Shown here in pieces: positions 548 through 63,044 of a stretch of 64,000 nt of DNA. Positions within the stretch are counted from its first letter, which is position 1. Every line of letters starts with the position of its first letter. The translations under genes and the position numbers were made by a program. The DNA is taken from the NCBI GenBank assembly GCA_020854065.1, contig JADZGF010000005.1, positions 8,925-72,924 on the forward strand, given 5' to 3'. The stretch is from Candidatus Nomurabacteria bacterium (GTDB lineage Bacteria > Patescibacteriota > Minisyncoccia > Phycocordibacterales > SBAW01). The notes under the pieces were generated by a model. That model worked only from the letters and a program-made list of their open reading frames with translations. It did no database searches and had not been told where the DNA came from.

Positions 548-1654
548 ATGCTCCCGCATCGTGTGTTAACAGTTGCAACAATTCCGGAAGGAGGAAGTCT
601 TTGGGCAACCGGTGGATATGGTAATGGTGTTATCGGCAATAATACCAACAATAACTACTCCTCTCCAGTACAAGTGGGCACACTCGCTACTTGGTCGCAG
701 GTGTCGGCGGGGACTTTACACACCACCGCTGTTAAAACCGACGGTACGTTATGGGCGTGGGGAAATAACGGCGCAGGGCAGGTTGGCGACAACACTGTTA
801 TAACTCGCTCCTCACCAGTACAAGTAGGTACCCTCGCCGATTGGTCACAAGTCTCTGCTGGAGGTACTCATACTGCCGCGGTGAAGACCGATGGCACCTT
901 ATGGGCATGGGGTCAAGGCACGACTGGTGTTGTTGGCGACAATGATAACGTTAATCGTTCCTCTCCGGTTAAAGTGGGCACTCTTTCTACCTGGTCGCAG
1001 GTTTCCGCGGGAGGATCCCACACTGCAGCCGTTAGAACCAACGGCACTTTATGGGCGTGGGGGCAAGGAACCTTAGGTCGCATTGGCCAAAATAACACCA
1101 TCACTCGCTCATCGCCGGTGCAGATTGGTGCACTCACCACCTGGTCACAAGTGTCGGCAGGAGGAAGCCACACTGCCGCAGTTAAGACTGACGGTACTCT
1201 GTGGGTGTGGGGGTATGGCACGTTTGGTGCAGTAGGCGATAATACGAACACGATCCGCTCCTCTCCAGTGCAAGTAGGCACGCTCACCACATGGTTGCAG
1301 GTATCGGCGGGGAAATATCACACTGCCGCGGTGAAGACTGACGGCACCATTTGGGCATGGGGATATAACAGCGCAGGGCAGGTTGGCGACAACTCCACGA
1401 CCACTCGCTCATCGCCGGTGCAAGTAGGGACGCTCACTACTTGGTCACAAGTTTCTCTTCCTGTGGGGGCGAGTCACACTACCGCGATTAAGACCGACGG
1501 GACGCTTTGGGCATGGGGGCTTAATAGCTTTGGTTTTCTCGGTGACAATACTGCTGATAGCCGTTCCTCACCTGTACAAATTGGTTCACGTGTTTGGTCG
1601 AACGTTGCCGCGGGGGGTCTACATACGGTGGCTGTTGGAGGGTCAGTAGGTTAA
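548..1654 (+). CDS. RCC1 (regulator of chromosome condensation)-like beta-propeller repeat protein
   Basis: Seven tandem roughly 53 aa repeats of the form DGTLWAWG.N..GQ.GDN....RSSPVQVG.L..WSQVSAG..HTAAVKT, which is the classic RCC1 blade signature. Confidence 0.85.
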   Translation: MLPHRVLTVATIPEGGSLWATGGYGNGVIGNNTNNNYSSPVQVGTLATWSQVSAGTLHTTAVKTDGTLWAWGNNGAGQVGDNTVITRSSPVQVGTLADWSQVSAGGTHTAAVKTDGTLWAWGQGTTGVVGDNDNVNRSSPVKVGTLSTWSQVSAGGSHTAAVRTNGTLWAWGQGTLGRIGQNNTITRSSPVQIGALTTWSQVSAGGSHTAAVKTDGTLWVWGYGTFGAVGDNTNTIRSSPVQVGTLTTWLQVSAGKYHTAAVKTDGTIWAWGYNSAGQVGDNSTTTRSSPVQVGTLTTWSQVSLPVGASHTTAIKTDGTLWAWGLNSFGFLGDNTADSRSSPVQIGSRVWSNVAAGGLHTVAVGGSVG

Positions 1655-5935: not shown

Positions 5936-7534
5936 CTACTGTACCTCTTGCGTGTATAGTGTTGCAACTTCTTTTGCCACCTCCTCAGGCTCTGGCAGAT
6001 ATACTGACCAATCAGCCACTGGGACATCGACGTGCATTGCCTCGCCATTGACTGGTTCGCCCAAAATGTCGTCGGCCAACAAGCGCTTGTAGAGCGCTTT
6101 TGTTTTGTATCCCGTTGACCCTTTGCGGTATGGAAAGACGAGGTCTGGGTGTTTGCAGGTAGCGAGCATAACTATCCAGTTATCAAACGCCCCTGCAAGC
6201 TGCACCGGTGAACTATCGTTCGTAAGTAATACCGGCGCAGCCTCCATGAGTGCAAAGAGCTCACCAAGCTCAAGAGTGTTGCGCAAGTCTGTACCGCTTG
6301 GTGGGCACACCACTGGCACAAGTCCTGTTTTGTCTCCATCAACAGACGAGTGGCCTTTGCCGATAAGGCATACGATAAGGCCCTCTTTGGCGAGAAGATC
6401 AACAGTCGATTGCCACCAAGGCAGTGGTAATGTTTTGCTTGCCCAACTTTTGCCGGCATGGACAAGTACTACCTTTGACATATCAATGCCCTGCATCCGC
6501 GCAGCAAGACGTTCACGGTCTGTAGCGTTAGGTACCAAACGGATTTCACGATCTTTAAGCGGAAGCATGCGCATGAGCATGGTCATGGCATGGAAGTCGA
6601 TCATGTGGGTAAGGAGAAACGACACCGAGCGAGAGAGTGCCGAGTCGGGGTTGGGGAGCGTCCAAAAGGTGCGGTATACAACTCCTTGAGGATTAAAGGA
6701 ATTGTGTACATGCACGGGTACACCTAAGTGTTCGTACATGCGTGGCCAAAAACAGGAGATACGAACATTGTCAGTTGGATACAGATGCTCGCGCAAGTAT
6801 CGGATAGCGGGCTCAGCAGAGGCGTGATCGCCCAACCCACCAAACACACTCACCATAATATTCTTCTTGTACTGGTGTTTACCTACATTGGCTGACCATG
6901 TTTCTAAATCATTGCGCATGACGGGCACAAGTACCTCGGGAGAAGGGTAATTACTGTAGTGGATGATATAAGAATCAAAGCGCTCTTCGCCTGTCGTGTC
7001 GAGTGCGGGGAGGCGGTTAAATACATAGGGCAGGGGCAGTATGGCGGTTTCTTTAGCGGCAAACACCGCGCTCATATATTGATTGATCGAAAAACCGAGC
7101 ATTGGGTCTTGTGGGTGCGCAAACAAGTCGCGGTTTTGTTTTGACACTACCAACACGCCGCTGTCATAGATGGTTGGTTTTGTAATTTCTGTACCAAGCA
7201 GCATGGTTGCCGATTGGGCAAGTTCTTTGGTTTTTTCATCAGCGTTTTGCAAAGGGTACGCTCCCACCTTTTCTTCGGCGACGATCTCAAACAGGTCGGG
7301 ACAATCTTCGCGCACGATACAATCGGGTGCTATGTATATGACACGGTCGTATTTCTCGAGTGCATCGTAGAGTTGCAATATGCCCCATGCAGGATGCACG
7401 CCTGATAGTTTTTCCTCCTTTATTTCATCAAAGTCGGCACCAATGCGGCTCGCGTACGCTTTAATCGAAGGCGCACTTACATCGGCAAGTGTTTTGTAGT
7501 CTCTCAGGGTTGAGGTAAGGACAAGTTTTTTCAT
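5936..7534 (-). CDS. two-domain glycosyltransferase: N-terminal GT-A (GT8/GT32-like, DXD) + C-terminal GT9-like (heptosyltransferase fold)
   Basis: The N-terminal half has VIYIAPDCIV and DSGVLVV, typical of GT-A nucleotide-sugar transferases. The C-terminal half has VVLVHAGKSWASKTLP....GLIVCLIGKG and LLTNDSSPVQLAGAFD, matching GT9 motifs. The start is placed at MKKLVLTS (7534), which overlaps the upstream gene's stop. The ORF track extends to 7582. Confidence 0.6.
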   Translation of the reverse strand: MKKLVLTSTLRDYKTLADVSAPSIKAYASRIGADFDEIKEEKLSGVHPAWGILQLYDALEKYDRVIYIAPDCIVREDCPDLFEIVAEEKVGAYPLQNADEKTKELAQSATMLLGTEITKPTIYDSGVLVVSKQNRDLFAHPQDPMLGFSINQYMSAVFAAKETAILPLPYVFNRLPALDTTGEERFDSYIIHYSNYPSPEVLVPVMRNDLETWSANVGKHQYKKNIMVSVFGGLGDHASAEPAIRYLREHLYPTDNVRISCFWPRMYEHLGVPVHVHNSFNPQGVVYRTFWTLPNPDSALSRSVSFLLTHMIDFHAMTMLMRMLPLKDREIRLVPNATDRERLAARMQGIDMSKVVLVHAGKSWASKTLPLPWWQSTVDLLAKEGLIVCLIGKGHSSVDGDKTGLVPVVCPPSGTDLRNTLELGELFALMEAAPVLLTNDSSPVQLAGAFDNWIVMLATCKHPDLVFPYRKGSTGYKTKALYKRLLADDILGEPVNGEAMHVDVPVADWSVYLPEPEEVAKEVATLYTQEVQ

Positions 7535-8760
7535 CGGTCGTTTCGTATATACGTGCAGGCGTGGTGCACAGCTCCTACCCAATCACCATACCTTGGCTGG
7601 CGCAGCGCAACCATGTTTGGGTACCATGGCGCACTGTCCAGTGGCAGCCAGTAGTGGTGTGGGGCGTGTGGCAAGAGTACGAGTGTTTTTTTACCCAAGT
7701 TGCCTGCCAAGTGTGCGGTCGAGGTGTCGTTAGTGACTATATAGTCCATAAGGCTCATTACCGAAGCTGTGCTCTCCCACGACGGGAGCCCCGCTTCGGT
7801 GTCATACACAGGAGCGTCTTTAGGGAGTGTGTTGTTGCCTGCGTCGCGCTGTAAGCTGTAGAGTTGCCCCACCTCGTTTAGTTTTAGTATTTCTTGTGCA
7901 GGAGGTGATTTGCGCTCGAGATAATCAAATGCCCAGTTTCCCTGCCAATGTATGCCAATCTTTACGCGGCCATTTGCTACTTCCGTAATTTTTGGTTCCC
8001 ATTTTTTAACCTCTTCCTTAAGTGGTGCAAAAGTAGGAAATTCCATACCAACCAAAGGATCCCTAATAGCAAAGAGCGGGATCATACTCATGGCGGGGAT
8101 GTAGTAGTCGTATTCGTCTGGGTTAATGGTTTTTATCGCCCGTACGTCTTTCATTCCGGACATGCGGGCGATAAGGGGAACAAGCCGTTGATGTGCGCCG
8201 ACTATGACCGTTGCGCCGTGTTTCTCGAGCCACGGGGCAAAGCGTGCGTAGGCCAGTTCATCGCCAAAGCCGCCTTCGAGTGCAAGTAATACTCTTTTGC
8301 CCTCAAGCAACATTCCTTTTATATACTTCTTCTCTATTGGTAGAGCGTGCGAGGCGTCTATGCGATAAATACCAATCTCTGGCTCGAGCTCGGTAAAGCC
8401 ATGAGCCGTGTCGCCATGTCTGAGCATGTGCCAGCCGGTAAGGTATGCGAGTCCAGGAGTCCCTCGAGGAACCTGGCGTGCGAGTCTTTCGCTTTCATCA
8501 AACTCGCCTATGTATCGAAGATAGTGCGCTAATTTTATTTGGTAATTAAAATTCCCTGGCTCTACAGCGAGCAGGGCTCTCATGATCGCCGCTGCTTCTG
8601 GTGCACGCATAAGATTAAAGAGGCACTCTGCTTCGACTGCTTGGAGCAGTTCATCAGTGCGGCCCAGCGCCTGCAGTTGTTTAACACACGCAAGTGCTTC
8701 ACTAAACTGTTTTTGCGCAAAGTACTCTTGGCCCCTGCGTATAAGCTCTTGTTCGTCCAT
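7531..8760 (-). CDS. TPR-repeat + GT9-like (heptosyltransferase-fold) glycosyltransferase
   Basis: N-terminal TPR-like helices. KRVLLALEGGFGDELAYARF and IVTNDTSTAHLAGNLGKKTLVLLP are paralogous to the N-terminal half of the 1661..3613 protein. Confidence 0.65.
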   Translation of the reverse strand: MDEQELIRRGQEYFAQKQFSEALACVKQLQALGRTDELLQAVEAECLFNLMRAPEAAAIMRALLAVEPGNFNYQIKLAHYLRYIGEFDESERLARQVPRGTPGLAYLTGWHMLRHGDTAHGFTELEPEIGIYRIDASHALPIEKKYIKGMLLEGKRVLLALEGGFGDELAYARFAPWLEKHGATVIVGAHQRLVPLIARMSGMKDVRAIKTINPDEYDYYIPAMSMIPLFAIRDPLVGMEFPTFAPLKEEVKKWEPKITEVANGRVKIGIHWQGNWAFDYLERKSPPAQEILKLNEVGQLYSLQRDAGNNTLPKDAPVYDTEAGLPSWESTASVMSLMDYIVTNDTSTAHLAGNLGKKTLVLLPHAPHHYWLPLDSAPWYPNMVALRQPRYGDWVGAVHHACTYIRNDR

Positions 8761-11988: not shown

Positions 11989-14895
11989 ATGCGGCTTATG
12001 CCAAATCATCCGCCCCATGTTTTGCGCTACGCGGCGCTTCTAACGGGTGGAGTAATGCTCCTGGTTATGGTGGCGCTCGTAATGTCGGGTAATGTTCCCT
12101 TCGCTCCGAAATTCGTTAAAAATCTAGCAGGTACACTTGAAAGAAACCCAACCTCTCAGGCTGCGGGTATACCTTTTTATGCTGACCATTTTCCGATCTA
12201 CAATGGAGGCGACCCAAATCTGAGGCTGGTGAATGTTATCTTACCTGGTCACCCGGTACCCAATAACTGCGGACTTAATACCTGTGGAAATACAGGAAGC
12301 TGCAGCAATCCCTACATAGGACTCATTAGTATAAGCGATAGCTCCGGCACTAACGGACATGCCGCGCGCGTAAGATTCAACAATACTGTACAATACTTGC
12401 CGTCAACGGGTGTGTTTCAATCGCCATCCGGCAGTACTTTAACACTCAATTGGTCTTGTCAGGACAAGGTTATCAGGCATCAGCTTGACGCATATAATTG
12501 CAGTAACTATGTCGCCGATGGTGTCTGGTACTTCGACAGCGCTGTCGTAACGGGCCCTAGTGGCACCTTGTACAGCGGAACCAACAGGATCGGAAGCGTG
12601 CAAGTCCCTTTTAGTGGGAGTGTGGGCCAAACATTTAACTATACGTTGACGTGTCAAAGAAAAACCAACTCGTGGAGTGCCAGTGTTTCAGCTAGAATAA
12701 TGCCCCCTGCTCCTACTCTTAGTATTACGGGCCAAGTCGGTGCTTCTTCACCGGTAAGCGGTACGGTAAACATGACAGTGGGGCAGTCGGTGCTCATTAC
12801 AGGCACCTTTTCCGCTGCTTCAGGAGATTCCTTAACGGCCACTGCACTCAACGACTCTTCAAACAACGCGCTTCCTGGTGTGTCCAACACAACTAATACT
12901 TCACCAAAGACCTACACTTTTACTCCAACGACGGCGGGCACGTATGTTTTCTACCCAGCAGTTAGAACGACCTTGCATCCAACGTGGAATAATCATGGCA
13001 GTGCACTTACGGTACAAGTGGCCGCCGCTCCTTCAGGGTTCACCCTCACAGTCGACTCAAACGGCTCCTCAGGCGTTGCTATTGGCGGTACTTCAGGCTA
13101 CACCGGTACCACTAACTACACTAAGGTGGGTATCGCAAACGGGACGTCGGTTCAGCTTATCGCTCCTGCTACTACAGACACTGCCTACTTCTCTGGTTGG
13201 AACAACTGTAATTCAGGCAGTGGCACCACATGTACTGTCATCGTGAACTCCAGTAAGACGGTGACGGCAAACTTCGGCACTGGAGGTTACACACTCACCG
13301 TCAACACCTCCGGCGCGTCAGGGATATCCATAAGCGGTTCTCCGACACTTACTGGCGGTACTACTAACTACGTCCGCTCAGGTATTCCTGGCGGAAGTGT
13401 CATTGTCCTCACAGCACCTTCGACTTCGGGTACCGCCACCTTCTCCTCCTGGAGCGGCTGTACTTCGGCAAGTGGGGTCACATGCAACATTACAATGACG
13501 GGCGGGAATAAAACGGTAACGGCAAGCTATACCGCAACCGACCTTTGCCCATCTCTCAGCGGCACACAAACCTCATACCCATCAGGTTCGAGCCCGGCTA
13601 ACTCATGCACCTGTCCTAGTGGCTACACGTATAACAGTGTCTCCAACACGTGTGTTGCGCCGGCGACTGATCTCTGTCCATCACTTGCGGGAACACAAAC
13701 GTCATATCCGTCAGGTTCAAGTCCAGCAAACTCCTGCACCTGCCCCAGTGGGTATACGTACGACAGCGGTTCTAACGCTTGTGTTGCTCCGGACCTCTGC
13801 CCATCACTTGCAGGAACACAGACCTCATATCCATCAGGTTCAAGTCCAGTAAACTCCTGCACCTGCCCAAGTGGGTATACGTACAACAGTGGCTCCAACG
13901 CTTGTGTTGTCGCGAGCGACTCGTGTACGACCATGTATCCAAGTTATTACGGTCCTGTTGTTGTGACGGGTACTACTGCAGGGACTGTGTATGGTAGTGG
14001 TCCGTACCATTTTATCTCTACCACTGCCAAAGCGGCAGTACATGCTGGTATTATCTCTGTCGGACAGACTGCTACTATTATGCGCACAAGCGCTGGTACA
14101 GTAAGTTCTTTCACTGGCTCTACACAAAATGGAATCACTTCCTTTACGACTGGGTCCTCTGCGTGTGGTGTAACACTCTCTAACGCGGCGCCATCAATAC
14201 CTACCTTGACTCTTGCTTCGACGCAGAGTGCTGCCGAGGGTGGGTCAACGGGTATTTTTACTGTTACTGCAAACCAGACTTCAAGCAGCAATATTGCCGT
14301 TAACTACACTGTTACAGGCGGCACTGCCACCGAAGGTGTCGATTACACTTCGCTTTCGGGCTCAGTTACTCTTCCGGCGTACGAGACGAGCGTAACGATA
14401 CTGGTGAGTGCCATTAACGACACTGAGTACGAGGGTACTGAGACAATAGGATTGTCATTGGATTCTTCTTCCAGTTATGACCGTGGGAGTCCGTATACTG
14501 CGACCATGAACCTTATCGACAACGAAACAGCAGCTTCGCTCCCAACATTCTCCACCTGTGCAGACACCGGGACTCCTCCTACCTGCTCGTTGGCACTACT
14601 TTCAGGTCTTACTTCAGTTAATTGGATTAGACAGGGTCTTCCTGTAACTGTGTCCTGGAATGTAGACGGACTCGTCACTGGTTCTCCGGGTAATACTTGT
14701 ACGATACGATCAATTCCTTCTTCAGCATTCACCACGCGAAGCTGGCCACAGACCGGGAGTACGTGGGTGGGCACTGCAACGTCAAATAACATTATACAGA
14801 CTACGATCTTTACCCTCACCTGCACAGCGCCAAATGGTATAGAAACTACAACTGCACGAACGGTGCGCGTGGTGCCTCGCTTCAATGAGATCTAG
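11989..14895 (+). CDS. large multi-domain surface protein: N-terminal TM anchor, two InlB B-repeat-like domains, three Cys-rich roughly 40 aa repeats, Calx-beta-like domain
   Basis: TM helix at residues roughly 15-35. Two roughly 80 aa repeats of the form YTLTV..SG..G...SG......GT.NY.......G..V.L.A......F..W..C.SG..C....N..KTVTA.F (InlB B-repeat pattern). Three DLCPSLxGTQTSYPSGSSPxNSCTCPSGYTY(N/D)SxSNxCV repeats. A Calx-beta-like stretch VNYTVTGGTATEGVDYTSLSGSVTLPAYETSVTILVSAINDTEYEGTETIGLSL. Confidence 0.75.
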   Translation: MRLMPNHPPHVLRYAALLTGGVMLLVMVALVMSGNVPFAPKFVKNLAGTLERNPTSQAAGIPFYADHFPIYNGGDPNLRLVNVILPGHPVPNNCGLNTCGNTGSCSNPYIGLISISDSSGTNGHAARVRFNNTVQYLPSTGVFQSPSGSTLTLNWSCQDKVIRHQLDAYNCSNYVADGVWYFDSAVVTGPSGTLYSGTNRIGSVQVPFSGSVGQTFNYTLTCQRKTNSWSASVSARIMPPAPTLSITGQVGASSPVSGTVNMTVGQSVLITGTFSAASGDSLTATALNDSSNNALPGVSNTTNTSPKTYTFTPTTAGTYVFYPAVRTTLHPTWNNHGSALTVQVAAAPSGFTLTVDSNGSSGVAIGGTSGYTGTTNYTKVGIANGTSVQLIAPATTDTAYFSGWNNCNSGSGTTCTVIVNSSKTVTANFGTGGYTLTVNTSGASGISISGSPTLTGGTTNYVRSGIPGGSVIVLTAPSTSGTATFSSWSGCTSASGVTCNITMTGGNKTVTASYTATDLCPSLSGTQTSYPSGSSPANSCTCPSGYTYNSVSNTCVAPATDLCPSLAGTQTSYPSGSSPANSCTCPSGYTYDSGSNACVAPDLCPSLAGTQTSYPSGSSPVNSCTCPSGYTYNSGSNACVVASDSCTTMYPSYYGPVVVTGTTAGTVYGSGPYHFISTTAKAAVHAGIISVGQTATIMRTSAGTVSSFTGSTQNGITSFTTGSSACGVTLSNAAPSIPTLTLASTQSAAEGGSTGIFTVTANQTSSSNIAVNYTVTGGTATEGVDYTSLSGSVTLPAYETSVTILVSAINDTEYEGTETIGLSLDSSSSYDRGSPYTATMNLIDNETAASLPTFSTCADTGTPPTCSLALLSGLTSVNWIRQGLPVTVSWNVDGLVTGSPGNTCTIRSIPSSAFTTRSWPQTGSTWVGTATSNNIIQTTIFTLTCTAPNGIETTTARTVRVVPRFNEI

Positions 14896-29615: not shown

Positions 29616-30065
29616 ATGATTACGACGGAGCAAATAAAAGAACTTCGGGAGAAGACCGGTATTTCGATTGCTGAGTGCAAGAAGGCACTTGAGGCAACAG
29701 AAGGAGACATGGCAAAGGCTATGGATATTCTGCGCGAGCGTGCTGCTGCTGCAGTGGGTAAGAAGGCTGATCGTGACTTGGGTGCAGGCTCTGTTGCATC
29801 CTATGTACACGGCACTGCCCAGGTGGGTGCCATGGTTAAGTTGGCCTGCGAGACTGACTTCGTATCCAAGAATGAAGAGTTCGTAGCCCTTGCTCGCGAC
29901 ATTGCTATGCACGCCACTGCGATGAAGCCAACATCAATCGTTGAGCTTCTCGAGCAGCCGTTCATCAAGAACCCTGAGAGTATGATTAAAGACCTCATTT
30001 CTGCCGCTACGCAGAAGTTTGGCGAGCGTATTGAGGTCTCGGAACTCAGTGTTTTCTCCGTCTAA
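29616..30065 (+). CDS. tsf: elongation factor Ts (short form, 149 aa)
   Basis: ITTEQIKELREKTGISIAECKKALEATEGDMAKAMDILRE is the N-terminal UBA-like EF-Ts signature. Immediately downstream of rpsB (conserved rpsB-tsf pairing). Confidence 0.85.
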   Translation: MITTEQIKELREKTGISIAECKKALEATEGDMAKAMDILRERAAAAVGKKADRDLGAGSVASYVHGTAQVGAMVKLACETDFVSKNEEFVALARDIAMHATAMKPTSIVELLEQPFIKNPESMIKDLISAATQKFGERIEVSELSVFSV

Positions 30066-30530: not shown

Positions 30531-30606
30531 GCCGGAGTAGCTCAGTTGGTAGAGCGCCGCTTTTGTAAAGCGAGGGTCGCCGGTTCAAGCCCGGCCTCCG
30601 GCTCCA
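30531..30606 (+). tRNA. tRNA-Thr (anticodon TGT), CCA encoded
   Basis: Cloverleaf folds by hand: acceptor GCCGGAG/CTCCGGC, D-arm GCTC-AGTTGGTA-GAGC, anticodon stem CCGCT/AGCGA with loop TTTGTAA (U33, anticodon TGT, A37), 5 nt variable loop, T-arm GCCGG-TTCAAGC-CCGGC, discriminator T and a CCA tail. Confidence 0.8.
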
Positions 30607-30608
30607 AT

Positions 30609-31286
30609 TTATCGTTCCGTGGTCGTTGCAGTGGTCGTCGAGAGCGTAGAAAGTTCAGGGATGAGCTCTTCCATCTGCTCGAGATTGCGGAAGCCGTATA
30701 CCGGTGCGCGATCGTTGATGATCAGTGCAGGGAGGTCGCCGCGTACTTTACGCAAGGCGATCAGTGTCTGAAGTGCCGAGAGGTTTAGATTGTAGTCAAA
30801 CGAGTATACGCGGAGTCCCGGGTACGTCTGGCGCAAGTAGGTGAGTACTTCGCCGAGGCGAGCACAGTCGGTGCAGTCTCCCGTGTTGCTGTAGAAGTAG
30901 AGCACATATACCGGCTCAAAAGATGAGCACTTCTGTGACACCTCTTGGAGGAGAAGATAGTCTTTGATCTGGAGAAGTGAGTATTGTTTCTTAAGAGAAA
31001 TTACTTCTGCGTTGTCGCTGCCGAGGTTTCCTTCTGCGACACTGAGGCGACTTGCAAGCTCATCAAGCTCATCCGAGAGAACTGGATTATCTGCAATGAT
31101 GGAGCAGGGCAAGTTGCCCAATAGATCAAACTGAGTTTCAAGCGAGAGTATGTCGATAGAGACTGCCTCTTGCGTTGCGCGAATATCCGCGACGCGGGCG
31201 CTATCAAATCGTGCGGCAATATAAAAGGCTGTGCCGAAAATGGCAGCAGTAATACCAAACGCAAGGATATATTTTTGCCAACTCAT
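30609..31286 (-). CDS. membrane-anchored thioredoxin-like CxxC protein (putative)
   Basis: N-terminal TM helix (ILAFGITAAIFGTAFYIAA) and a CTDC motif in an otherwise thioredoxin-sized soluble domain. Weak. Confidence 0.35.
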   Translation of the reverse strand: MSWQKYILAFGITAAIFGTAFYIAARFDSARVADIRATQEAVSIDILSLETQFDLLGNLPCSIIADNPVLSDELDELASRLSVAEGNLGSDNAEVISLKKQYSLLQIKDYLLLQEVSQKCSSFEPVYVLYFYSNTGDCTDCARLGEVLTYLRQTYPGLRVYSFDYNLNLSALQTLIALRKVRGDLPALIINDRAPVYGFRNLEQMEELIPELSTLSTTTATTTER

Positions 31287-31298
31287 GACGTACGTGTT

Positions 31299-32531
31299 TT
31301 ACCGCCAAACGCTCTCGCGCGCAAGGAGTGCACCCCAAGCCGCCTTTACAAGCCACAATGGTGCGATAAAGCCGTAGAGTGCAAAGTATGCAACAAACGA
31401 GCGGGGTTTAAGAGAGGTTTGAGATATTTTGGCACCCATATAGATCGCAAAGAGTGTCAGTGAGATCACCGTTACGGTGACGAAGATAATCATACTGGTT
31501 TGGATGTAGAACCAATCAAAGTGGAAGGATGGCATGTGAAGTGGAATGCCCGTTGCTGAGTAATCTGCGATGCGATTCACTATGAGCGACGTTACGGTGT
31601 AGAGCATGTATCCTGCGGTATAGAGACCTGCGGCAAATGCAGCAAGACCAAAGGGCAGGACGAGCATACCGAAGTTTCCATATTTGCGATTAAAGAACAT
31701 GTGTGCGTAGTCTTTGCTGTTTTGGAGGAACCCTTGTGACCAGCGTGTTCGCTGCTTTACCAACGCACGCACTGTTTTCGGTACGGTCGTGTATACATAC
31801 GCAGTGTGTGCATTCACAATCTTGAGTCCATGAGAGTGCATGCGGAATGCGATTTCCATGTCTTCGGTGTTGTGCGCGTGTTTAAAGAGACCAATCTTTT
31901 TAAATACCTCGCGGCGATAGAGAGAGAAGGGGCCAGGCAATACTGAGATAGCCGAGAGGTTGTCGAACATTTTTTTATAGAAAATACCGAATGTATATTC
32001 GACTGCCTGCATCAGTTCAAGTGCATTCTTTGGCTCATGTACCTTCATTGCTGGAGTAATGGCCATGATGCTCGGATTATCATTTAAACTCTTTATCACT
32101 TCGATCAGCGCATCTTGAGCAACAAACGAGTCAGCGTCCAGGCATCCCACAATGTCTGCAGTTGCGTTCTCGATACCGAAGTTAAGTGCAGTGTATTTGC
32201 CACCATTTTCTTTGGTGTAGAAACGGACGTTTGGATATTTTGCAGCATAGGTCTGGGCAATAGAAGCGGTATTATCCGTGGATCCATCATCAACAACTGT
32301 CACGGTCAATTTGTCCTGCGGATACTCCATCGCAAGGAGAGATTCGATGGTCTTGCCTACCGTCTCTTGCTCGTTAAAGCAGGGCACCAAGATATCTACC
32401 GTCGGGTAGAAGGCAGGACGGAGCGCGCTCTTTTTGCTAGGGCGTTTTTCTAGGAAGCTAATGAGCAAAAACACCTCAAAGTAGAGGGCAATAAAAAGAC
32501 ACACATACAGGCCAAGGGCCCCGATTTCCAT
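31299..32531 (-). CDS. processive family 2 glycosyltransferase (cellulose/chitin/PNAG synthase-like) with C-terminal TM helices
   Basis: VDILVPCFNE...VVDDGSTDNT (DXD region), the Q(Q/R)XRW motif as KQRTRWSQG, and multiple TM segments at both ends. Confidence 0.75.
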   Translation of the reverse strand: MEIGALGLYVCLFIALYFEVFLLISFLEKRPSKKSALRPAFYPTVDILVPCFNEQETVGKTIESLLAMEYPQDKLTVTVVDDGSTDNTASIAQTYAAKYPNVRFYTKENGGKYTALNFGIENATADIVGCLDADSFVAQDALIEVIKSLNDNPSIMAITPAMKVHEPKNALELMQAVEYTFGIFYKKMFDNLSAISVLPGPFSLYRREVFKKIGLFKHAHNTEDMEIAFRMHSHGLKIVNAHTAYVYTTVPKTVRALVKQRTRWSQGFLQNSKDYAHMFFNRKYGNFGMLVLPFGLAAFAAGLYTAGYMLYTVTSLIVNRIADYSATGIPLHMPSFHFDWFYIQTSMIIFVTVTVISLTLFAIYMGAKISQTSLKPRSFVAYFALYGFIAPLWLVKAAWGALLARESVWR

Positions 32532-32587: not shown

Positions 32588-33721
32588 TTATCGGACCTGG
32601 GCACCATATTCGGCAGCGGTTTTCTGCTCAAGTGCTTTATGGAGCGCGTCTACCTCCTCACTGGTGAGTGTTCGATCAAGTGAGCGGTACACAATGCGAT
32701 ACGTGTAGCTTATCTTATCCGCCCCGAACTTTTCTGCACTTTCGAACTTGTCTAAAAGGGAGACTTCTTCGATGAGATCTTCGCCCACAGTCTCGCGGAT
32801 AAGGTCAAAGTAGTCATTGGGGGCAAAACGTTTGTCGACAATGAAAGAAATGTCGCGCACTACTGCTGGGTACTTGCTAACCTCTTTGTACTTCTGCCCA
32901 AGCTTCAGCTGAGCTGTTACGCGCGGGTCTGTGGACCATAAAAGGCGTATGTCAGGGAGTTCCATGCTGATAATAGCAAGACGCTCTAACCCAAAGCCGA
33001 ACGCCCATCCGTTGTATCCCTCAAGCCCCATCTTTTTGAGTACTGATTTCTTTGGCATACCGCTGCCAAGAATCTCAATCCAGCGATCTCCCACCTTTAC
33101 CTCAACTTGGAGCGACGGATCAGTGTAGGGGAAAGTATCATCCAAAAAGCGGTATTCAATACCACTGCCAAAGAGTCCTTCAACGACTTCGGTTAAGACA
33201 CGCTTCAATTCATCAAGCGGCATGATGCCTTTTGAATCAGGCTGCAAGAGCCATCCACCAAACTGGTGGAAGACATTCATGTGACGATTATCTATCTCGT
33301 CTTTGCGGTATACCTTGCCATAGCAGACGCAACCGACATCTTCGCCGCGAGCAATACGCTCTTTAACCTCGGGCAAATTGAGGTAGTAATACCACATGAC
33401 CGTGTCATGGGGGCGTAAGATATCAGTCTTAGTTGCGTAGTAGGTGTCCGAGGGGCTGCGTGCCGGGTGATCAGGAGGGAAATCAAAGAGATCAAAGGCA
33501 ATGGTGGTCGGTACGATCTCCGGAATGATGATGTTGTCGAGTGTTGAGAGGGTAGGAGTTGCCCGGGCACGCTCTACTAACTCATAGAGCGGGTGTCCAG
33601 GTGTGCGGGAGAGATCCGGCATCGACAATACGCGCTTCATACGCAAAGCGTCGGTGTCTTGCCGTGACTCAAGACTTTTTTTGGTCTCCTCTTCGGTCTT
33701 TGTGTCTATACGGTATTCCAT
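32588..33721 (-). CDS. pheS: phenylalanine--tRNA ligase, monomeric mitochondrial-like type (PheS catalytic core + C-terminal FDX-ACB anticodon-binding domain)
   Basis: Class II PheRS alpha motifs (DHPARSPSDTYY, LRPHDTVMWYYY, GKVYRKDEIDNRHMNVFHQFGG, GFGLERLA). The C-terminal roughly 95 aa (SKYPAVVRDISFIV...NDYFDLIRETVGEDLIEEVSLLDKF...YRIVYRSLDRTLTSEEV) matches the FDX-ACB domain that ends monomeric mitochondrial PheRS. Confidence 0.75.
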   Translation of the reverse strand: MEYRIDTKTEEETKKSLESRQDTDALRMKRVLSMPDLSRTPGHPLYELVERARATPTLSTLDNIIIPEIVPTTIAFDLFDFPPDHPARSPSDTYYATKTDILRPHDTVMWYYYLNLPEVKERIARGEDVGCVCYGKVYRKDEIDNRHMNVFHQFGGWLLQPDSKGIMPLDELKRVLTEVVEGLFGSGIEYRFLDDTFPYTDPSLQVEVKVGDRWIEILGSGMPKKSVLKKMGLEGYNGWAFGFGLERLAIISMELPDIRLLWSTDPRVTAQLKLGQKYKEVSKYPAVVRDISFIVDKRFAPNDYFDLIRETVGEDLIEEVSLLDKFESAEKFGADKISYTYRIVYRSLDRTLTSEEVDALHKALEQKTAAEYGAQVR

Positions 33722-33754: not shown

Positions 33755-33790
33755 TAAAAAAGAAGACCGCCATGTGATTACATGGCGGAA
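33755..33790 (-). terminator. putative rho-independent terminator downstream of 33803..34246 (minus strand)
   Basis: CCGCCATGT-GATT-ACATGGCGG hairpin. On the minus strand it is followed by UCUUCUUUUUU. Confidence 0.5.
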
Positions 33791-33802: not shown

Positions 33803-34246
33803 TCAGCAGCGCTTGTAGAAACCGTTCAGTACGCTTGCTGGCATCATTTTCAGATCTTGTGTCAGGCCACCTTGGTGCCTAATCCACTCCTGCACCACTT
33901 TCGGGTAAGAGTTCATCATGGAGTTGGTGACCTTTGGGTTGGGGCCAGCGTAGTGCTGGGTCGCGAAGAATCCGTAATTGCGCAGCTCCACATCGAATGC
34001 CGCATGGAAACCAAAGACTGCACGGTTCGTGACACACACCTTCTTGCGCGGCACGTAGCTCAGGACCAGTGTGCAGGCCGAGAGGCATTTTCCGTCGATC
34101 ATCACCGAGTATCCGGCTGCCCGGATACCTTTGTATAACTCGATGTACGCTTCAACTCTGCCGCCCGGGTCATCACTAATTCGGACCTGGGCGTGTGCCG
34201 GAGCACTCATGAGTGCCGCAAAGAGCAAAAGCAAAACGTATCGCAT
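33803..34246 (-). CDS. secreted ClpP/SppA-like (crotonase-fold) protease-family protein, putative
   Basis: Signal peptide MRYVLLLLFAALMSAPAHA. DDPGGRVEAYIELYKGIRAAGYSVMIDGKCLSACTLVL resembles the INSPGG....Y......GxAAS region of ClpP/S49 peptidases. Start taken at the internal Met; the ORF track extends to 34378. Confidence 0.4.
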   Translation of the reverse strand: MRYVLLLLFAALMSAPAHAQVRISDDPGGRVEAYIELYKGIRAAGYSVMIDGKCLSACTLVLSYVPRKKVCVTNRAVFGFHAAFDVELRNYGFFATQHYAGPNPKVTNSMMNSYPKVVQEWIRHQGGLTQDLKMMPASVLNGFYKRC

Positions 34247-34394
34247 AGGAGTCCTTCTCCTCCACCAGTTGCTCTGCCACAACGGTACCACTTTATCCTT
34301 ATTTAGCAAGCTTATTTGTGGGTGGAGGGGCTTCCAAAAAGGGTTAAAATTTGTTAATATATAGGGGTAGGCCCGCATAGGGTTTAGCTAACTA

Positions 34395-36452
34395 ATGGCC
34401 GAGGAAAAGACTAAAAAATCCAATTACGGTGCCGACGCCATTACCGTCCTCGAGGGTCTCGAGGCAGTCCGGCGCCGTCCGGGTATGTACATCGGTACCA
34501 CGGGTCCCGATGGTCTTCATCATTTGCTCTGGGAGGTATTTGATAACAGCCGGGATGAAGCAATGGGTGGTTTTGCTGATGAAATTGAGGTCGTGCTCTT
34601 GCCGGGCAACATGGTTCGCAATGCGGACAATGGGCGTGGTATTCCGGTTGAAGTACACAAGCAAACCAAGGTTTCTACACTTGAGACCGTTCTCACGATT
34701 TTGCATGCGGGTGGTAAGTTCGGTGGTGAAGGATACAAAGTATCCGGCGGTTTACACGGTGTCGGTGTCTCGGTGGTGAACGCGCTTTCAACGAAGCTGG
34801 TTGCGGAGGTTCATCGCGATGGGGCAGCCCATGTGCAGGAGTACTCAATTGGCAAACCGAAAGGGAAGATAAAAAAGATAGGAGCAAGTAAACTCCACGG
34901 TACCGTTATTACCTTCACCCCAGACGATTCCATCTTTACAGGGGGTATCGAAATGAGCTTCGAAAAAATAGTCTCGCATTTGCGTGAGCAAGCATATCTC
35001 GTCAAAGGGCTGCGCATTCGGATTATTGATGCACGTAACTCTTCGGTAAAAATCCCTGCATCAGGCGAAGAGCTATTTGTGGGGCATCTGTTCACCGATT
35101 GTCCATCGCAAACCTTCTATTTCGAAGGAGGCCTTCGTTCGCTCATTTCCTTCCACAACCGATACCTCAAACCGATTCATAAGAATATCTTCTATATCGA
35201 GAAGGAGATAGATGATGTATCAGTCGAGATTGCACTCCAATATGTAGATGACATCTCTTCCCGCGTATTTCCGTTTGCAAACAACATATACAACACCGAG
35301 GGAGGTACCCATATCACGGGTTTTAAGACTGCACTTACCCGCACTCTTAACTCATATGGCCGCAAGGCAGGGATTGTAAAAGAGAGTGAAGAAAACTTCA
35401 CCGGGGATGACGTGCTTGAGGGTCTCTCGGCAGTCGTATCGGTAAAACTTCGGGAGATTCAATTCGAAGGCCAGACCAAAGGCAAACTTGGGTCTGTTGA
35501 AGCACGTGGCGCTGTTGAAAGCGTCTTTAGCGAAGCATTCGGGGTTTTTCTCGAAGAGAACCCTGACGATGCAAAAGCGATAATCAGCAAGTCGGTCTTG
35601 GCGATGAAGGCGCGTAAAGCGGCTAAAGCTGCCAAAGACTCGATATTGCGCAAAGGCGCACTTGAGGGCATGACGCTCCCAGGCAAACTCGCTGATTGCC
35701 AAAGCAAAGATGCATCAGAGTCTGAGCTCTTTGTGGTGGAGGGCGATTCTGCAGGTGGTTCAGCAAAAATGGGTCGTGATCGCCGTACACAAGCAATCTT
35801 GCCGCTTCGTGGCAAGATCCTCAACGTTGAACGTGCACGGCTCGATAAGATGCTGGGCTCTGAGCAGATCAAAAACTTGGTCGTGGCGTTAGGCACCGCA
35901 ATCGGTGAGACATTTAATATCGAGAAACTCCGCTACCATAAAATCATCCTCGCTACCGATGCCGATGTTGACGGTGCACACATTCGCACACTGCTTTTGA
36001 CACTACTCTTCCGCCATTTCCGACCCATCATCGAGGGTGGTTTTGTCTACATTGCACAACCACCGCTCTATAAGATTAAGAAGGGTAAAGAGGTTCACTA
36101 CGCATACTCTGATGAGGAGAAGTTTAAGATCGTCGGCGATGAGCCGGTTGAGGAAGGCGAACCACAGGAGTCTCCAGAAGGGGAAACACCAACTGAAGAA
36201 GCGGAGGAGAAAGCAGCGTCTAACCCTAAGAAATCAAAATTCCAAATCCAGCGCTACAAAGGTCTTGGAGAGATGAACCCTGAGGAATTGTGGGAGACCA
36301 CGATGAACCCGGAAAACCGCGTGCTTAAACAAGTTACGATCGACGATGCAGCGGATGCAGATCGTGTATTCGATATTTTGATGGGTGAGGATGTTTCAAG
36401 CCGCAAGAGCTTTATCCAAAGCAATGCGAAGTCGGCAAACTTGGATATCTAA
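34395..36452 (+). CDS. gyrB: DNA gyrase subunit B (type IIA topoisomerase ATPase subunit)
   Basis: GHKL ATPase motifs (LHHLLWEVFDNSRDEA, GLHGVGVSVVNALS), TOPRIM (EGDSAGGSA, LATDADVDGAHI) and C-terminal QRYKGLGEMNPE. Confidence 0.9.
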   Translation: MAEEKTKKSNYGADAITVLEGLEAVRRRPGMYIGTTGPDGLHHLLWEVFDNSRDEAMGGFADEIEVVLLPGNMVRNADNGRGIPVEVHKQTKVSTLETVLTILHAGGKFGGEGYKVSGGLHGVGVSVVNALSTKLVAEVHRDGAAHVQEYSIGKPKGKIKKIGASKLHGTVITFTPDDSIFTGGIEMSFEKIVSHLREQAYLVKGLRIRIIDARNSSVKIPASGEELFVGHLFTDCPSQTFYFEGGLRSLISFHNRYLKPIHKNIFYIEKEIDDVSVEIALQYVDDISSRVFPFANNIYNTEGGTHITGFKTALTRTLNSYGRKAGIVKESEENFTGDDVLEGLSAVVSVKLREIQFEGQTKGKLGSVEARGAVESVFSEAFGVFLEENPDDAKAIISKSVLAMKARKAAKAAKDSILRKGALEGMTLPGKLADCQSKDASESELFVVEGDSAGGSAKMGRDRRTQAILPLRGKILNVERARLDKMLGSEQIKNLVVALGTAIGETFNIEKLRYHKIILATDADVDGAHIRTLLLTLLFRHFRPIIEGGFVYIAQPPLYKIKKGKEVHYAYSDEEKFKIVGDEPVEEGEPQESPEGETPTEEAEEKAASNPKKSKFQIQRYKGLGEMNPEELWETTMNPENRVLKQVTIDDAADADRVFDILMGEDVSSRKSFIQSNAKSANLDI

Positions 36453-56195: not shown

Positions 56196-63044
<6,849 letters not shown>

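What the first reader, a model, noticed from the sequence alone, without database searches (positions are those of the whole stretch)
32588..33721. Mitochondrial-type monomeric phenylalanyl-tRNA synthetase in a bacterium
The 377 aa protein has the PheS class II catalytic core. It then ends in a domain that closely matches the FDX-ACB anticodon-binding fold used by monomeric mitochondrial PheRS (SKYPAVVRDISF..., NDYFDLIRE..GEDLIEEVSLLDKF, YRIVYRSLDRTLTSEEV) instead of stopping as a bacterial alpha subunit. Bacteria normally use an (alpha-beta)2 PheST enzyme. No pheT follows this gene: the neighbours are a GT2 and a ClpP-like gene. If no pheT exists in the genome, this lineage charges tRNA-Phe with a single-chain enzyme lacking the beta-subunit editing site.
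Basis: partly seen in the sequence, partly recalled or inferred. Interest (0 to 1): 0.7.

Follow-up and report, generated by a model that had tools for sequence, protein, structure and literature searches.

The report
Single-chain mitochondrial-type PheRS in CPR bacteria
This gene encodes a one-piece phenylalanine-tRNA synthetase of the kind otherwise known from mitochondria, and related genomes suggest it has displaced the usual two-subunit bacterial enzyme, proofreading domain included, in a very large group of ultra-small bacteria.

Summary
Window 32588-33721 (minus strand) is an intact 377-aa ORF with a class IIc PheS catalytic core (Pfam E 4.5e-47) fused to a full FDX-ACB domain (E 4.9e-21). 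Its best solved relative is human mitochondrial PheRS, by sequence (E 1e-60) and by predicted fold (TM 0.77-0.80). The source is a Candidatus Nomurabacteria MAG (Patescibacteria/CPR). At least 555 species-level genomes carry the gene. It is about as conserved as GyrB and usually lies beside gyrB.

Phe-pocket and ATP residues are kept, unlike in the related NCBIfam 'mystery ligase' SrmL. No pheS or pheT lies in the 64-kb window.

Doudnabacteria-labelled relatives have canonical pheS - X - pheT - gyrB. Their close kin carry, in the same slot, X - a 130-150-aa remnant of the PheT B2 domain - the single-chain gene - gyrB, and pheS is gone. That is an in-situ displacement of PheST.

I conclude (about 0.8) that this is the lineage's housekeeping PheRS and that it lacks the beta-subunit editing site. 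Absence of pheT from the whole source genome could not be tested. I found no paper describing this. Verdict: new variant of a known kind.

The parts
32588..33721 (-). Single-chain PheRS gene, 377 aa including the stop codon: PheS-type core fused to the FDX-ACB (B8) domain.
   Evidence: ORF. Pfam. NCBIfam. PDB sequence search. 100% identical to 'hypothetical protein IT396_01535 [Candidatus Nomurabacteria bacterium]'. AF2 pLDDT 92.2.
33596..33721 (-). Short N-terminal segment (residues 1-42, two predicted helices). It takes the place of the long coiled-coil N-domain of bacterial PheS.
   Evidence: No PF02912 match. AF2 helices at residues 8-17 and 23-33. R20, R27, P35, D36 and L37 are invariant in alignment A1.
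32909..33595 (-). Class IIc catalytic core (residues 43-271) with motifs 1-3. It keeps HPAR/DTYY, YR139xD141, FHQ153, F197-P-Y199-T200 and GWA240-F241-G242..ER247. The lineage-specific pair is D106/G155.
   Evidence: Pfam PF01409 E 4.5e-47. Column analysis.
32591..32878 (-). FDX-ACB anticodon-binding domain (residues 282-377), homologous to domain B8 of PheT and to the C-domain of mitochondrial PheRS.
   Evidence: PF03147 E 4.9e-21 over the full profile. Matches pheT_bact profile positions 697-798. E. coli PheT residues 696-794 align here.
33767..33788 (-). Terminator-like hairpin with a T-run after orf191. A TATAGT-like -10 element follows about 20 nt before the ATG. This suggests the PheRS gene starts its own transcript.
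   Evidence: These are consensus matches only.
34395..36452 (+). gyrB, the conserved neighbour (context). In Doudnabacteria-labelled genomes the same position next to gyrB holds canonical pheT.
   Evidence: gyrB lies within 3 kb of the gene in 57 of 85 related loci. pheT-gyrB adjacency is seen in L098 and L173.
31299..32531 (-). GT2 glycosyltransferase, 56 nt downstream on the same strand (context). It may be co-transcribed. No functional link is shown.
   Evidence: Pfam. The GT2 plus 225-aa ORF pair lies directly downstream in about 30 of 85 loci.

Best explanation
The gene encodes the housekeeping phenylalanyl-tRNA synthetase of this Nomurabacteria/Parcubacteria lineage. It is a single polypeptide built like mitochondrial PheRS.

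Inferred mechanism, by homology with human mitochondrial PheRS: the class IIc core (motifs 1-3) binds Phe and ATP and makes Phe-AMP. The C-terminal FDX-ACB domain reads the GAA anticodon of tRNA-Phe. Aminoacylation needs a hinge movement from a closed to an open form.

The protein has no B3/B4 editing domain, so Tyr-tRNA-Phe or meta-Tyr-tRNA-Phe cannot be cleared in cis. Fidelity must rest on the active site or on factors acting in trans.

Shown here: the architecture, the fold, the conservation of catalytic and Phe-pocket residues, the wide distribution, the housekeeping synteny, and in-situ displacement of canonical pheS/pheT in related genomes. Inferred, not shown: enzymatic activity, the monomeric state, and absence of pheS/pheT from the rest of this particular genome.
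For: 1. Architecture and fold. PF01409 plus PF03147 are found in one 377-aa chain. Human mitochondrial PheRS is the best PDB hit, E 1e-60. The AF2 model (pLDDT 92.2, pTM 0.88) superposes on closed-state 3CMQ/5MGH over about 387 columns, with TM 0.77-0.80 and rmsd 3.4 A.

2. Active site. R139, D141, Q153, F197, T200, A240, G242 and R247 are each kept in at least 120 of 121 family members, and HPAR/DTYY and F241 are conserved in the aligned representatives. The SrmL clade has remodelled exactly these pocket positions. The motif-2 carboxylate (E/D155 elsewhere) is Gly here, but it co-varies perfectly with a new Asp at position 106. The pair is D/G in 116+74 sequences, T or N with D in basal ones, and never T/G. 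That pattern implies selection to keep an acidic group at the amino-acid site.

3. Housekeeping behaviour. At least 555 of 600 pattern hits in species-representative genomes encode it. The best 80 carry CPR/Patescibacteria or generic 'bacterium' titles, none naming another phylum, and include closed 808-kb and 829-kb chromosomes. Identity between genomes is equal to or higher than that of GyrB, and higher than that of RpsB and EF-Ts. gyrB is adjacent in 57 of 85 loci.

4. No rival gene nearby. There is no pheS or pheT in the window. None appears in 1.27 Mb of related loci either, apart from one B2 stump.

5. Displacement. L173 (Ca. Doudnabacteria) and L098 have pheS - TSP3-like gene - pheT - gyrB, extended in L173 by an upstream UvrD-like gene and downstream secE - nusG - rplK. 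Their PheS and PheT pass the curated NCBIfam cut-offs. Close relatives (GyrB 73-75% identical) have UvrD-like - TSP3-like - 125-154-aa B2 stump - single-chain gene - gyrB - secE - nusG - rplK, with no pheS. The stump is 51-68% identical (about 60-67% in most loci) to residues ~45-165 of those PheTs.

6. Scarcity of PheT. Full-length PheTs close to L098's are few, and none is named for the Nomura-, Kaiser- or Paceibacterota groups that carry the single-chain gene.
Against: The rest of the source genome could not be searched. The contig is 92 kb, the window is 64 kb, and the genome is probably about 0.8 Mb.

The protein scores below the curated cut-offs of TIGR00469 (217 against 258) and of every other PheRS model. 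NCBI therefore calls it 'hypothetical'.

Its nearest bacterial relatives outside the family look like accessory paralogues. These are the Oligoflexia protein P0124, which sits among non-housekeeping genes, and SrmL, named a 'mystery ligase'.

Two pocket positions differ from all characterised PheRS. The FPF motif is FPY (Y199), and the motif-2 Glu is Gly.

No activity, oligomeric-state or tRNA-Phe data exist. No tRNA-Phe gene lay in any fetched locus.
Confidence: 0.8

Rival explanations
1. It is an extra PheS-like paralogue, like the NCBIfam 'PheS-related mystery ligase SrmL' or a spare or resistance-type synthetase. On this reading it coexists with a canonical PheS/PheT encoded elsewhere in the genome and does something other than bulk Phe-tRNA-Phe synthesis.
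For: The best NCBIfam hit is SrmL (232 bits), although this is below its cut-off of 300. In the NJ tree the family groups with SrmL and the P0124 group with 91% bootstrap support. P0124 lies in an accessory-looking neighbourhood in an Oligoflexia MAG. The whole source genome was not searched.
Against: SrmL has lost HPAR/DT, changed FPF to HPY, and replaced F241. This family keeps them all. The family shows GyrB-level conservation and a fixed place beside gyrB. In related genomes pheS is gone and pheT is cut down to a B2 stump exactly where this gene sits. That would be lethal unless this gene supplies PheRS activity. Genomes of about 0.8 Mb rarely keep redundant synthetases (general knowledge).
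Confidence: 0.1
2. It is the PheRS but not a true stand-alone chain. On this reading it needs a small partner, such as the free PheT-B2-like tRNA-binding protein seen in relatives, encoded elsewhere in this genome. The enzyme would then be a minimal two-part system.
For: In all 15 loci (several of them duplicate copies of one contig) that have enough flanking sequence, the B2 mini-gene sits immediately upstream of the single-chain gene, separated by between -4 and about +120 nt. The search with the mini-protein returned 735 hits. The 120 best listed are well conserved (60-79% identity to the query) and carry only the tRNA_bind domain. This implies the mini-protein has a function.
Against: No B2-like sequence is found in the 64-kb window, or in 79 of the 80 loci most similar to the window gene. 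The window's clade is the B2-less crown of the tree. Human mitochondrial PheRS works without such a partner (established knowledge). The B2 domain of bacterial PheRS is reported to be dispensable for aminoacylation (Roy & Ibba 2006, as cited in PMC5370408).
Confidence: 0.07
3. It is an aminoacyl-tRNA synthetase with shifted amino-acid specificity, for example towards Tyr, meta-Tyr or another aromatic substrate. The shift would arise from the FPF-to-FPY change and the Glu-to-Gly change in motif 2.
For: Y199 is present in 120 of 121 members and G155 in 116 of 121. Both positions line the substrate site in characterised PheRS (combined with knowledge of the T. thermophilus and human structures).
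Against: A240 and G242, which set ring size and para-position selectivity, are unchanged, as are F197 and T200. Basal members that displaced canonical PheST still carry D155 together with Y199. Y199 is therefore compatible with PheRS function. The D106/G155 swap looks compensatory.
Confidence: 0.03

Closest known systems
Mitochondrial (organellar) monomeric PheRS: human FARS2, yeast Msf1 (PDB 3CMQ, 3TUP; TIGR00469; 'PheRS-M' in AARS Online)
   Same: The two-module chain is the same: a PheS-type core followed by FDX-ACB. There is no editing domain and no coiled-coil N-domain. It is the best sequence match (E 1e-60) and the best fold match (TM 0.77-0.80 to the closed form). Motifs 1-3 and the Phe pocket are shared.
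   Different: This protein is encoded in a bacterial chromosome among bacterial housekeeping genes. It lacks the insertion of about 40 residues that splits the human alignment into two stretches. It is shorter (377 aa against about 415-450). It scores below the TIGR00469 cut-off. It carries FPY and the D106/G155 swap. In the NJ bootstrap tree it belongs to a bacterial clade (91% support) and is not nested among eukaryotic sequences.
Canonical bacterial (alpha-beta)2 PheRS: PheS (TIGR00468) plus PheT (TIGR00472)
   Same: The catalytic core is homologous to PheS (27-32% identity to E. coli PheS). The C-domain is homologous to PheT B8. The gene occupies the chromosomal position next to gyrB that pheT holds in Doudnabacteria-labelled relatives.
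   Different: It is one chain. There is no B1-B7, and therefore no B3/B4 editing site and no B5 or B6/7. The PheS N-terminal tRNA-binding coiled coil is absent. It scores 147 against the pheS cut-off of 237.
NCBIfam NF051887 'PheS-related mystery ligase SrmL'
   Same: It has the same two-domain layout. It is the highest-scoring NCBIfam model (232 bits). It falls in the same bacterial clade in the tree.
   Different: The score is below the cut-off of 300. True SrmL members (P0228 scores 376 bits) have lost HPAR/DTYY, have HPY in place of FPF/FPY, and have replaced F241. They therefore probably bind another substrate. I found no paper on SrmL.
PheT B2 domain / YtpR-type tRNA-binding proteins (relevant to the mini-gene in related genomes, not in the window)
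   Same: The 125-154-aa proteins carry HPNADRL, VCGA.N and RG.ES.GM.C..ELG. They match pheT_bact profile positions 40-149 (98 bits), PDB 3BU2, and the PheT B2 domains.
   Different: They are free-standing and lie immediately upstream of a single-chain PheRS gene, in one case overlapping it by 4 nt. They score below the YtpR cut-off (75 against 100). They match Trbp111/YgjH only weakly (E 0.007).

Membership tests
Mitochondrial-type single-chain PheRS (TIGR00469 / PheRS-M) | Class IIc PheS-type catalytic core with motifs 1-3 | tested here: met
   PF01409 E 4.5e-47 at residues 43-271. The motif residues are conserved.
Mitochondrial-type single-chain PheRS (TIGR00469 / PheRS-M) | FDX-ACB anticodon-binding domain fused to the C-terminus of the same chain | tested here: met
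   PF03147 E 4.9e-21, 75.4 bits against a cut-off of 31.1, profile positions 1-94 of 94.
Mitochondrial-type single-chain PheRS (TIGR00469 / PheRS-M) | No beta-subunit domains B1-B7 (in particular no B3/B4 editing domain) and no PheS N-terminal coiled coil | tested here: met
   The only Pfam matches above their gathering cut-offs are PF01409 and PF03147 in 377 aa. E. coli PheT aligns only through residues 696-794.
Mitochondrial-type single-chain PheRS (TIGR00469 / PheRS-M) | Curated whole-protein score of the equivalog model TIGR00469 (at least 258.35 bits) | tested here: not met
   216.9 bits. Family members straddle the line: P0121 scores 264, L086 scores 242 and L082 scores 228.
Mitochondrial-type single-chain PheRS (TIGR00469 / PheRS-M) | Overall two-domain fold of human mitochondrial PheRS | tested here: met
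   The AF2 model has pLDDT 92.2. Foldseek gives 5MGH/3CMQ at E about 1e-34 to 1e-33, TM 0.77-0.80, rmsd 3.4 A. The open form 3TUP gives TM 0.59. This rests on a predicted model, not a solved structure.
Mitochondrial-type single-chain PheRS (TIGR00469 / PheRS-M) | Active as a monomer, charging tRNA-Phe with Phe | not testable with these tools
   This needs enzymology and SEC-MALS.
Mitochondrial-type single-chain PheRS (TIGR00469 / PheRS-M) | It is the only PheRS of its genetic compartment (no PheS/PheT alongside) | tested here: inconclusive
   None is present in the 64-kb window. Relatives show in-situ loss of pheS and truncation of pheT. The rest of the source genome could not be read.
NCBIfam NF051887 SrmL | Curated score of at least 300 bits | tested here: not met
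   232.2 bits.
NCBIfam NF051887 SrmL | SrmL-type remodelled pocket, as seen in members that pass the cut-off | tested here: not met
   The window family keeps HPAR, DTYY, F197 and F241. The SrmL clade does not.
Bacterial PheS alpha subunit (TIGR00468) | Curated score of at least 237.45 bits, an N-terminal PF02912 domain, and an ending directly after motif 3 | tested here: not met
   147 bits. There is no PF02912 match, and about 100 extra C-terminal residues form the FDX-ACB domain. For comparison, the L098 and L173 PheS proteins score 280 and 278 bits.

The most novel reading that the evidence does not exclude
The single-chain 'mitochondrial' PheRS is not a eukaryotic invention. On this reading it is an old, mobile bacterial or viral gene that can take over from the (alpha-beta)2 enzyme. 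It did so at the root of the huge Parcubacteria/Paceibacteria radiation. It is caught mid-takeover in Doudnabacteria-like genomes, where pheT is reduced to a retained B2 mini-subunit. Eukaryotic FARS2 would come from the same pool. A large fraction of bacterial diversity would then translate Phe codons without any PheRS editing site.
Probability: 0.3. Interest if true: 0.85.

Novelty: new variant of a known kind. Interest (0 to 1): 0.72.

Why it matters
Textbooks, and the reviews I could reach, list three PheRS forms: bacterial (alpha-beta)2, archaeal/eukaryotic (alpha-beta)2, and the mitochondrial monomer (PMC3275996 abstract; AARS Online, PMC11580382).

If this holds, the 'mitochondrial' form is also the standard cytoplasmic PheRS of one of the most species-rich bacterial groups. 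Three consequences follow.

1. These cells would lack cis-editing of Tyr-tRNA-Phe and meta-Tyr-tRNA-Phe. That is a testable case for how genome-reduced symbionts handle translational fidelity.

2. It reopens the origin of FARS2. All fused forms are monophyletic against PheS, and the bacterial clade is not nested inside eukaryotes.

3. The Doudnabacteria-like genomes are a natural before-and-after pair for synthetase displacement. A retained B2 mini-protein there may be a trans-acting tRNA-binding factor.

There is also a practical point. NCBI annotates these genes as 'hypothetical' and IMG as 'alpha chain'. Marker sets that expect pheT, or a TIGR00468-type pheS, will therefore under-score such genomes (inference).

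Tried and rejected
Literature. Nine searches found no paper on a bacterial single-chain PheRS or on SrmL. The terms were SrmL+PheS; monomeric/mitochondrial-like PheRS; PheRS with CPR, Patescibacteria or Parcubacteria; pheT with Parcubacteria; FARS2 with CPR; TIGR00472; and PheRS-beta with single-copy genes. Mukai 2017 (PMC5370408) notes only that many CPR PheRS-beta proteins lack B2. Supplement searches of four CPR genome papers for K01889, K01890 or pheT gave nothing useful. The one exception is that the 43-gene CPR marker list has a single 'Phenylalanyl-tRNA' entry, which is weak evidence.

Whole-genome check. The exact window protein is not in the contig index. Absence of pheT from the source genome therefore stays untested.

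Contamination or a eukaryotic fragment. Rejected. The gene is embedded in 64 kb of bacterial genes, including dnaE, smc, RNase R, gyrB, rpsB and tsf. It recurs in hundreds of MAGs.

A recent fusion of the local pheS and pheT. Rejected. The core is only about 28-32% identical to L098 PheS, and the C-domain at most about 29% to L098 PheT B8. The B2 stump, by contrast, is about 50-67% identical to the same PheT. The gene arrived already fused.

GT2 as a functional partner. The adjacency is conserved in about 30 of 85 loci. I found no reason for a functional link and treat it as synteny only.

Structural test of the D106/G155 swap. Model coordinates are not exposed, so I could not measure distances.
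Full report
**What is there.** Window 32588-33721 holds one ATG-started ORF of 377 aa on the minus strand. Pfam finds the PheRS class II core (PF01409) at residues 43-271 (E 4.5e-47). It also finds a complete ferredoxin-fold anticodon-binding domain (PF03147) at residues 282-377, covering profile positions 1-94 of 94 (E 4.9e-21, 75 bits against a cut-off of 31). Against PDB sequences the best matches are the human mitochondrial PheRS entries (E 1e-60). Bacterial PheS chains reach only E 1.8e-26, and PheT chains match only through their C-terminal ~100 residues. An AlphaFold2 model built on 66 homologues is confident (pLDDT 92.2, pTM 0.88). It superposes over its whole length on closed-state human mitochondrial PheRS (5MGH/3CMQ; TM 0.77-0.80, rmsd 3.4 A, about 387 columns). 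It fits the open tRNA-bound form 3TUP less well (TM 0.59). One detail is not: the upstream 191-aa ORF called 'ClpP-like' has no Pfam match even at E = 1.

**Whose gene it is.** The protein is 100% identical to 'hypothetical protein IT396_01535 [Candidatus Nomurabacteria bacterium]', carried on a 92-kb contig. The window carries ordinary bacterial housekeeping genes, including dnaE, smc, an RNase R-like gene, a class IIa synthetase, gap, gyrB, rpsB and tsf. The 120 best database hits are 66-95% identical. All carry both Pfam domains and nearly all are 375-399 aa. The names they carry are Parcubacteria, Kaiserbacteria, Paceibacterota, Minisyncoccia and Patescibacteria. The best 80 carry CPR/Patescibacteria or generic 'bacterium' titles, none naming another phylum, and include two closed chromosomes of 808 and 829 kb. 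Many of those titles read 'uncultured Candidatus Saccharibacteria', which looks like a generic submitter label. I could not check GTDB classes. NCBI calls these proteins 'hypothetical' because they fall between models: SrmL 232 against 300, pheS_mito 217 against 258, pheS 147 against 237. IMG calls them 'PheRS alpha chain'.

**Is it a working PheRS or a look-alike?** NCBIfam holds a related model for a 'PheS-related mystery ligase SrmL', so I took the look-alike reading seriously. An exhaustive search of 1.84 billion representatives gave 198 clusters at E <= 1e-30. Nearly all of the 107 listed representatives of at least 320 aa that I aligned carry both domains. These fused proteins fall into several groups:
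- eukaryotic mitochondrial enzymes (Schizosaccharomyces Msf1, Branchiostoma, Salpingoeca, Euglena and Vitrella);
- short forms, two of which lie on virus-like contigs;
- true SrmL (P0228 scores 376 bits);
- a small group that includes an Oligoflexia MAG protein;
- the Parcubacteria family.

In a 100-replicate NJ bootstrap, the fused proteins are monophyletic against three PheS outgroups (100%). The Parcubacteria family is monophyletic (100%). It joins the Oligoflexia-type group and SrmL in a bacterial clade (91%) that is not nested among eukaryotes. This is a distance tree on a small sample.

The column-by-column comparison is what separates the family from SrmL. SrmL has lost the HPAR and DT(F/Y)Y elements, has HPY in place of FPF, and has replaced the Phe of GWAFG. 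The window's family keeps the motif-2 Arg and Asp, FHQ, F197, T200, A240, G242 and the motif-3 Arg, each in at least 120 of 121 members, and the aligned representatives all keep HPAR/DTYY and F241.

Two differences from characterised PheRS remain. FPF is FPY (Y199). The motif-2 acidic residue (Glu in E. coli and human) is Gly155. That second change co-varies without exception with a new Asp in the neighbouring 'HTS' strand. The pair (106,155) is D/G in 116 database sequences and 74 loci, T or N with D in basal members, and never T/G. I read this as a relocated carboxylate kept by selection. That is what one expects if the site still binds the alpha-amino group of an amino acid. I could not test the geometry.

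**Is it the only PheRS?** I could not search the rest of the source genome. The 64-kb window has no other pheS- or pheT-like sequence. The same holds for 1.27 Mb of loci around the gene in 84 relatives, with one exception described below.

The gene behaves like a core gene. Its identity between genomes equals or exceeds that of GyrB and clearly exceeds that of RpsB and EF-Ts. gyrB lies within 3 kb in 57 of 85 loci. A GT2 plus 225-aa ORF pair, followed by tsf-rpsB, recurs downstream. In the window a terminator-like hairpin separates the gene from the upstream ORF. A -10-like TATAGT element precedes the ATG.

**The displacement.** The exception was L082. There a 136-aa ORF lies 16 nt upstream of the gene and matches E. 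coli PheT residues 45-144, the B2 tRNA-binding OB fold. Searching with that ORF returned 735 hits. The 120 best listed are all free-standing proteins of 119-186 aa with only the tRNA_bind domain. They are 60-79% identical to the query, and several lie on contigs of 730-852 kb. They match pheT_bact profile positions 40-149 (98 bits) and the PheT B2 domains. They match Trbp111-type proteins far less well.

In all 15 loci (several are duplicate copies of one contig) with enough flanking sequence, the mini-gene sits directly upstream of a single-chain PheRS gene of 370-380 aa. The gap ranges from a 4-nt overlap to about 120 nt. These cases comprise four database look-ups, L082, and ten metagenome contigs. 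gyrB follows wherever enough downstream sequence was fetched, in all but L101 and L172.

The same metagenome scan also returned L098. It has a canonical pheS (343 aa) - 504-aa TSP3-like gene - pheT (795 aa) - gyrB. Residues 45-165 of its PheT are 51-67% identical (60-67% in most loci) to the mini-proteins. The match includes a family-specific NIHSxEHESF insertion. A named counterpart is L173, from a Candidatus Doudnabacteria MAG with a 540-kb contig. Its gene order is UvrD-like - pheS - TSP3-like - pheT - gyrB - secE - nusG - rplK. Both PheS and both PheT proteins pass the curated cut-offs (280 and 278 bits; 611 and 632 bits).

The genomes carrying the mini-gene are collinear with these: UvrD-like - TSP3-like - B2 stump - single-chain PheRS - gyrB - secE - nusG - rplK. 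They have no pheS. Their GyrB, NusG and RplK are 73-75%, 79-85% and 67-75% identical to L173's. Close relatives thus differ by having either canonical pheS/pheT or, in the same slot, a pheT stump plus the single-chain gene.

The single-chain gene is not a local fusion. Its core is about 28-32% identical to L098 PheS, and its C-domain at most about 29% identical to L098 PheT B8. It arrived already fused. Losing pheS and truncating pheT is survivable only if the incoming gene supplies PheRS activity. This is the strongest functional evidence I have.

The B2-bearing loci branch early in the family tree. The window belongs to the B2-less crown and still lies beside gyrB, now in divergent orientation. 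Finally, full-length PheTs close to L098's are few: about 28 clusters at 46% identity or more. They are named Doudnabacteria, Patescibacteria, Saccharibacteria or Kerfeldbacteria, plus one broad 'Parcubacteria group' entry. None is named for the Nomura-, Kaiser- or Paceibacterota groups that carry the single-chain gene in large numbers.

**Mechanism proposed.** By homology with human mitochondrial PheRS, the core makes Phe-AMP and the FDX-ACB domain reads the GAA anticodon. A large hinge motion converts the closed form, which AF2 predicts, into the open tRNA-binding form. This step rests on established knowledge of 3CMQ and 3TUP. With no B3/B4 domain there is no cis-editing. Whether Y199 or the D106/G155 arrangement tightens discrimination against Tyr is speculation. 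In the Doudnabacteria-like genomes the retained B2 protein probably helps bind tRNA in trans. The window's lineage appears to manage without it. I put 0.8 on 'housekeeping, sole PheRS'. I put 0.1 on 'paralogue beside a canonical enzyme', about 0.07 on 'needs a partner encoded elsewhere', and about 0.03 on 'shifted specificity'.

**Novelty.** The kind of enzyme is known from organelles. What appears new is its use as the cytoplasmic PheRS of a very large bacterial radiation, the in-situ displacement series, the B2 mini-subunit, and the carboxylate swap. Nine full-text searches found no description of any of this. The reviews and the database paper I checked list the monomer only under a mitochondrial label (PMC3275996 abstract; PMC11580382; PMC10810186). 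The sequences are public but mis-annotated or unannotated. I rate this a new variant of a known kind, with interest about 0.7.

Noticed in passing
L082:4763-5173; L086:10001-10399; L088:10001-10408; L089:6001-6447; L091:6001-6429; L093, L096, L099, L101-L104, L106, L113, L172: A conserved free-standing protein of 125-154 aa (132-148 aa at the coordinates listed), derived from the PheT B2 (tRNA_bind) domain, sits immediately upstream of the single-chain PheRS gene in Doudnabacteria-like CPR genomes. In L088 the two genes overlap by 4 nt. The search with it returned 735 hits, and the 120 listed are all free-standing tRNA_bind-only proteins. IMG labels them 'PheRS beta chain'. The mini-gene is absent from the window.
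   Followed up: yes
L098:288-6345; L173:3374-10552; L105: Sister genomes keep canonical pheS - TSP3-like gene - pheT - gyrB in the same chromosomal slot. Together with the mini-gene loci they form a before-and-after pair for synthetase displacement. An unrelated gene of about 500 aa (TSP3-like) separates pheS from pheT.
   Followed up: yes
window 33406-33404 (D106) and 33259-33257 (G155) within the ORF: There is a perfect co-variation in the family. Either the 'HTS' strand carries Asp and motif 2 carries Gly, or the strand carries Thr or Asn and motif 2 carries Asp. The combination of Thr with Gly never occurs. The structural reason is untested.
   Followed up: partly
L175 (160-kb contig, gene 6001-7065); L177 (252-kb contig, gene 7001-8083): Short fused PheRS genes (354-360 aa) lie on contigs made mostly of densely packed ORFans. 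The contigs also carry dCMP deaminase, thymidine kinase and ankyrin genes. They look like jumbo-phage or giant-virus genomes, so viruses may carry and move this gene.
   Followed up: partly
P0227, P0228, P0230, P0258 (SrmL clade); L176 (Oligoflexia MAG, gene 6001-7245): True SrmL proteins have a remodelled amino-acid pocket (no HPAR/DT, HPY, F241 replaced). The Oligoflexia relative sits among beta-lactamase and enolase-superfamily genes. Both look like accessory ligases with other substrates.
   Followed up: partly
window 30609-32531 (GT2 plus 225-aa ORF), 30531-30606 (tRNA-Thr UGU): The GT2 and the 225-aa unknown ORF follow the PheRS gene in about 30 of 85 related loci. tRNA-Thr(UGU) is the commonest tRNA in those loci (41 copies). 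This is a conserved block of unknown meaning.
   Followed up: partly
window 33803-34378 (-): This 191-aa ORF lies between gyrB and the PheRS gene. It has no Pfam match and no homologue in any of the other 84 loci. It ends in a strong terminator-like hairpin. It is probably a lineage-specific insertion.
   Followed up: partly
window 29616-30065 (+): EF-Ts is only 149 aa here, against 195 aa in relatives (L003). The Pfam match covers only profile positions 1-75 of 204. It is either a shortened EF-Ts or a truncated gene.
   Followed up: no
window 548-1654, 1661-3613, 11989-14895, 56196-63044: Several proteins are unusual for a tiny genome. They are an RCC1-repeat protein (E 1.9e-81), a 650-aa protein with a sulfotransferase domain, a 968-aa protein with Calx-beta/LCCL/cEGF matches, and an unexamined 2282-aa ORF.
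   Followed up: no
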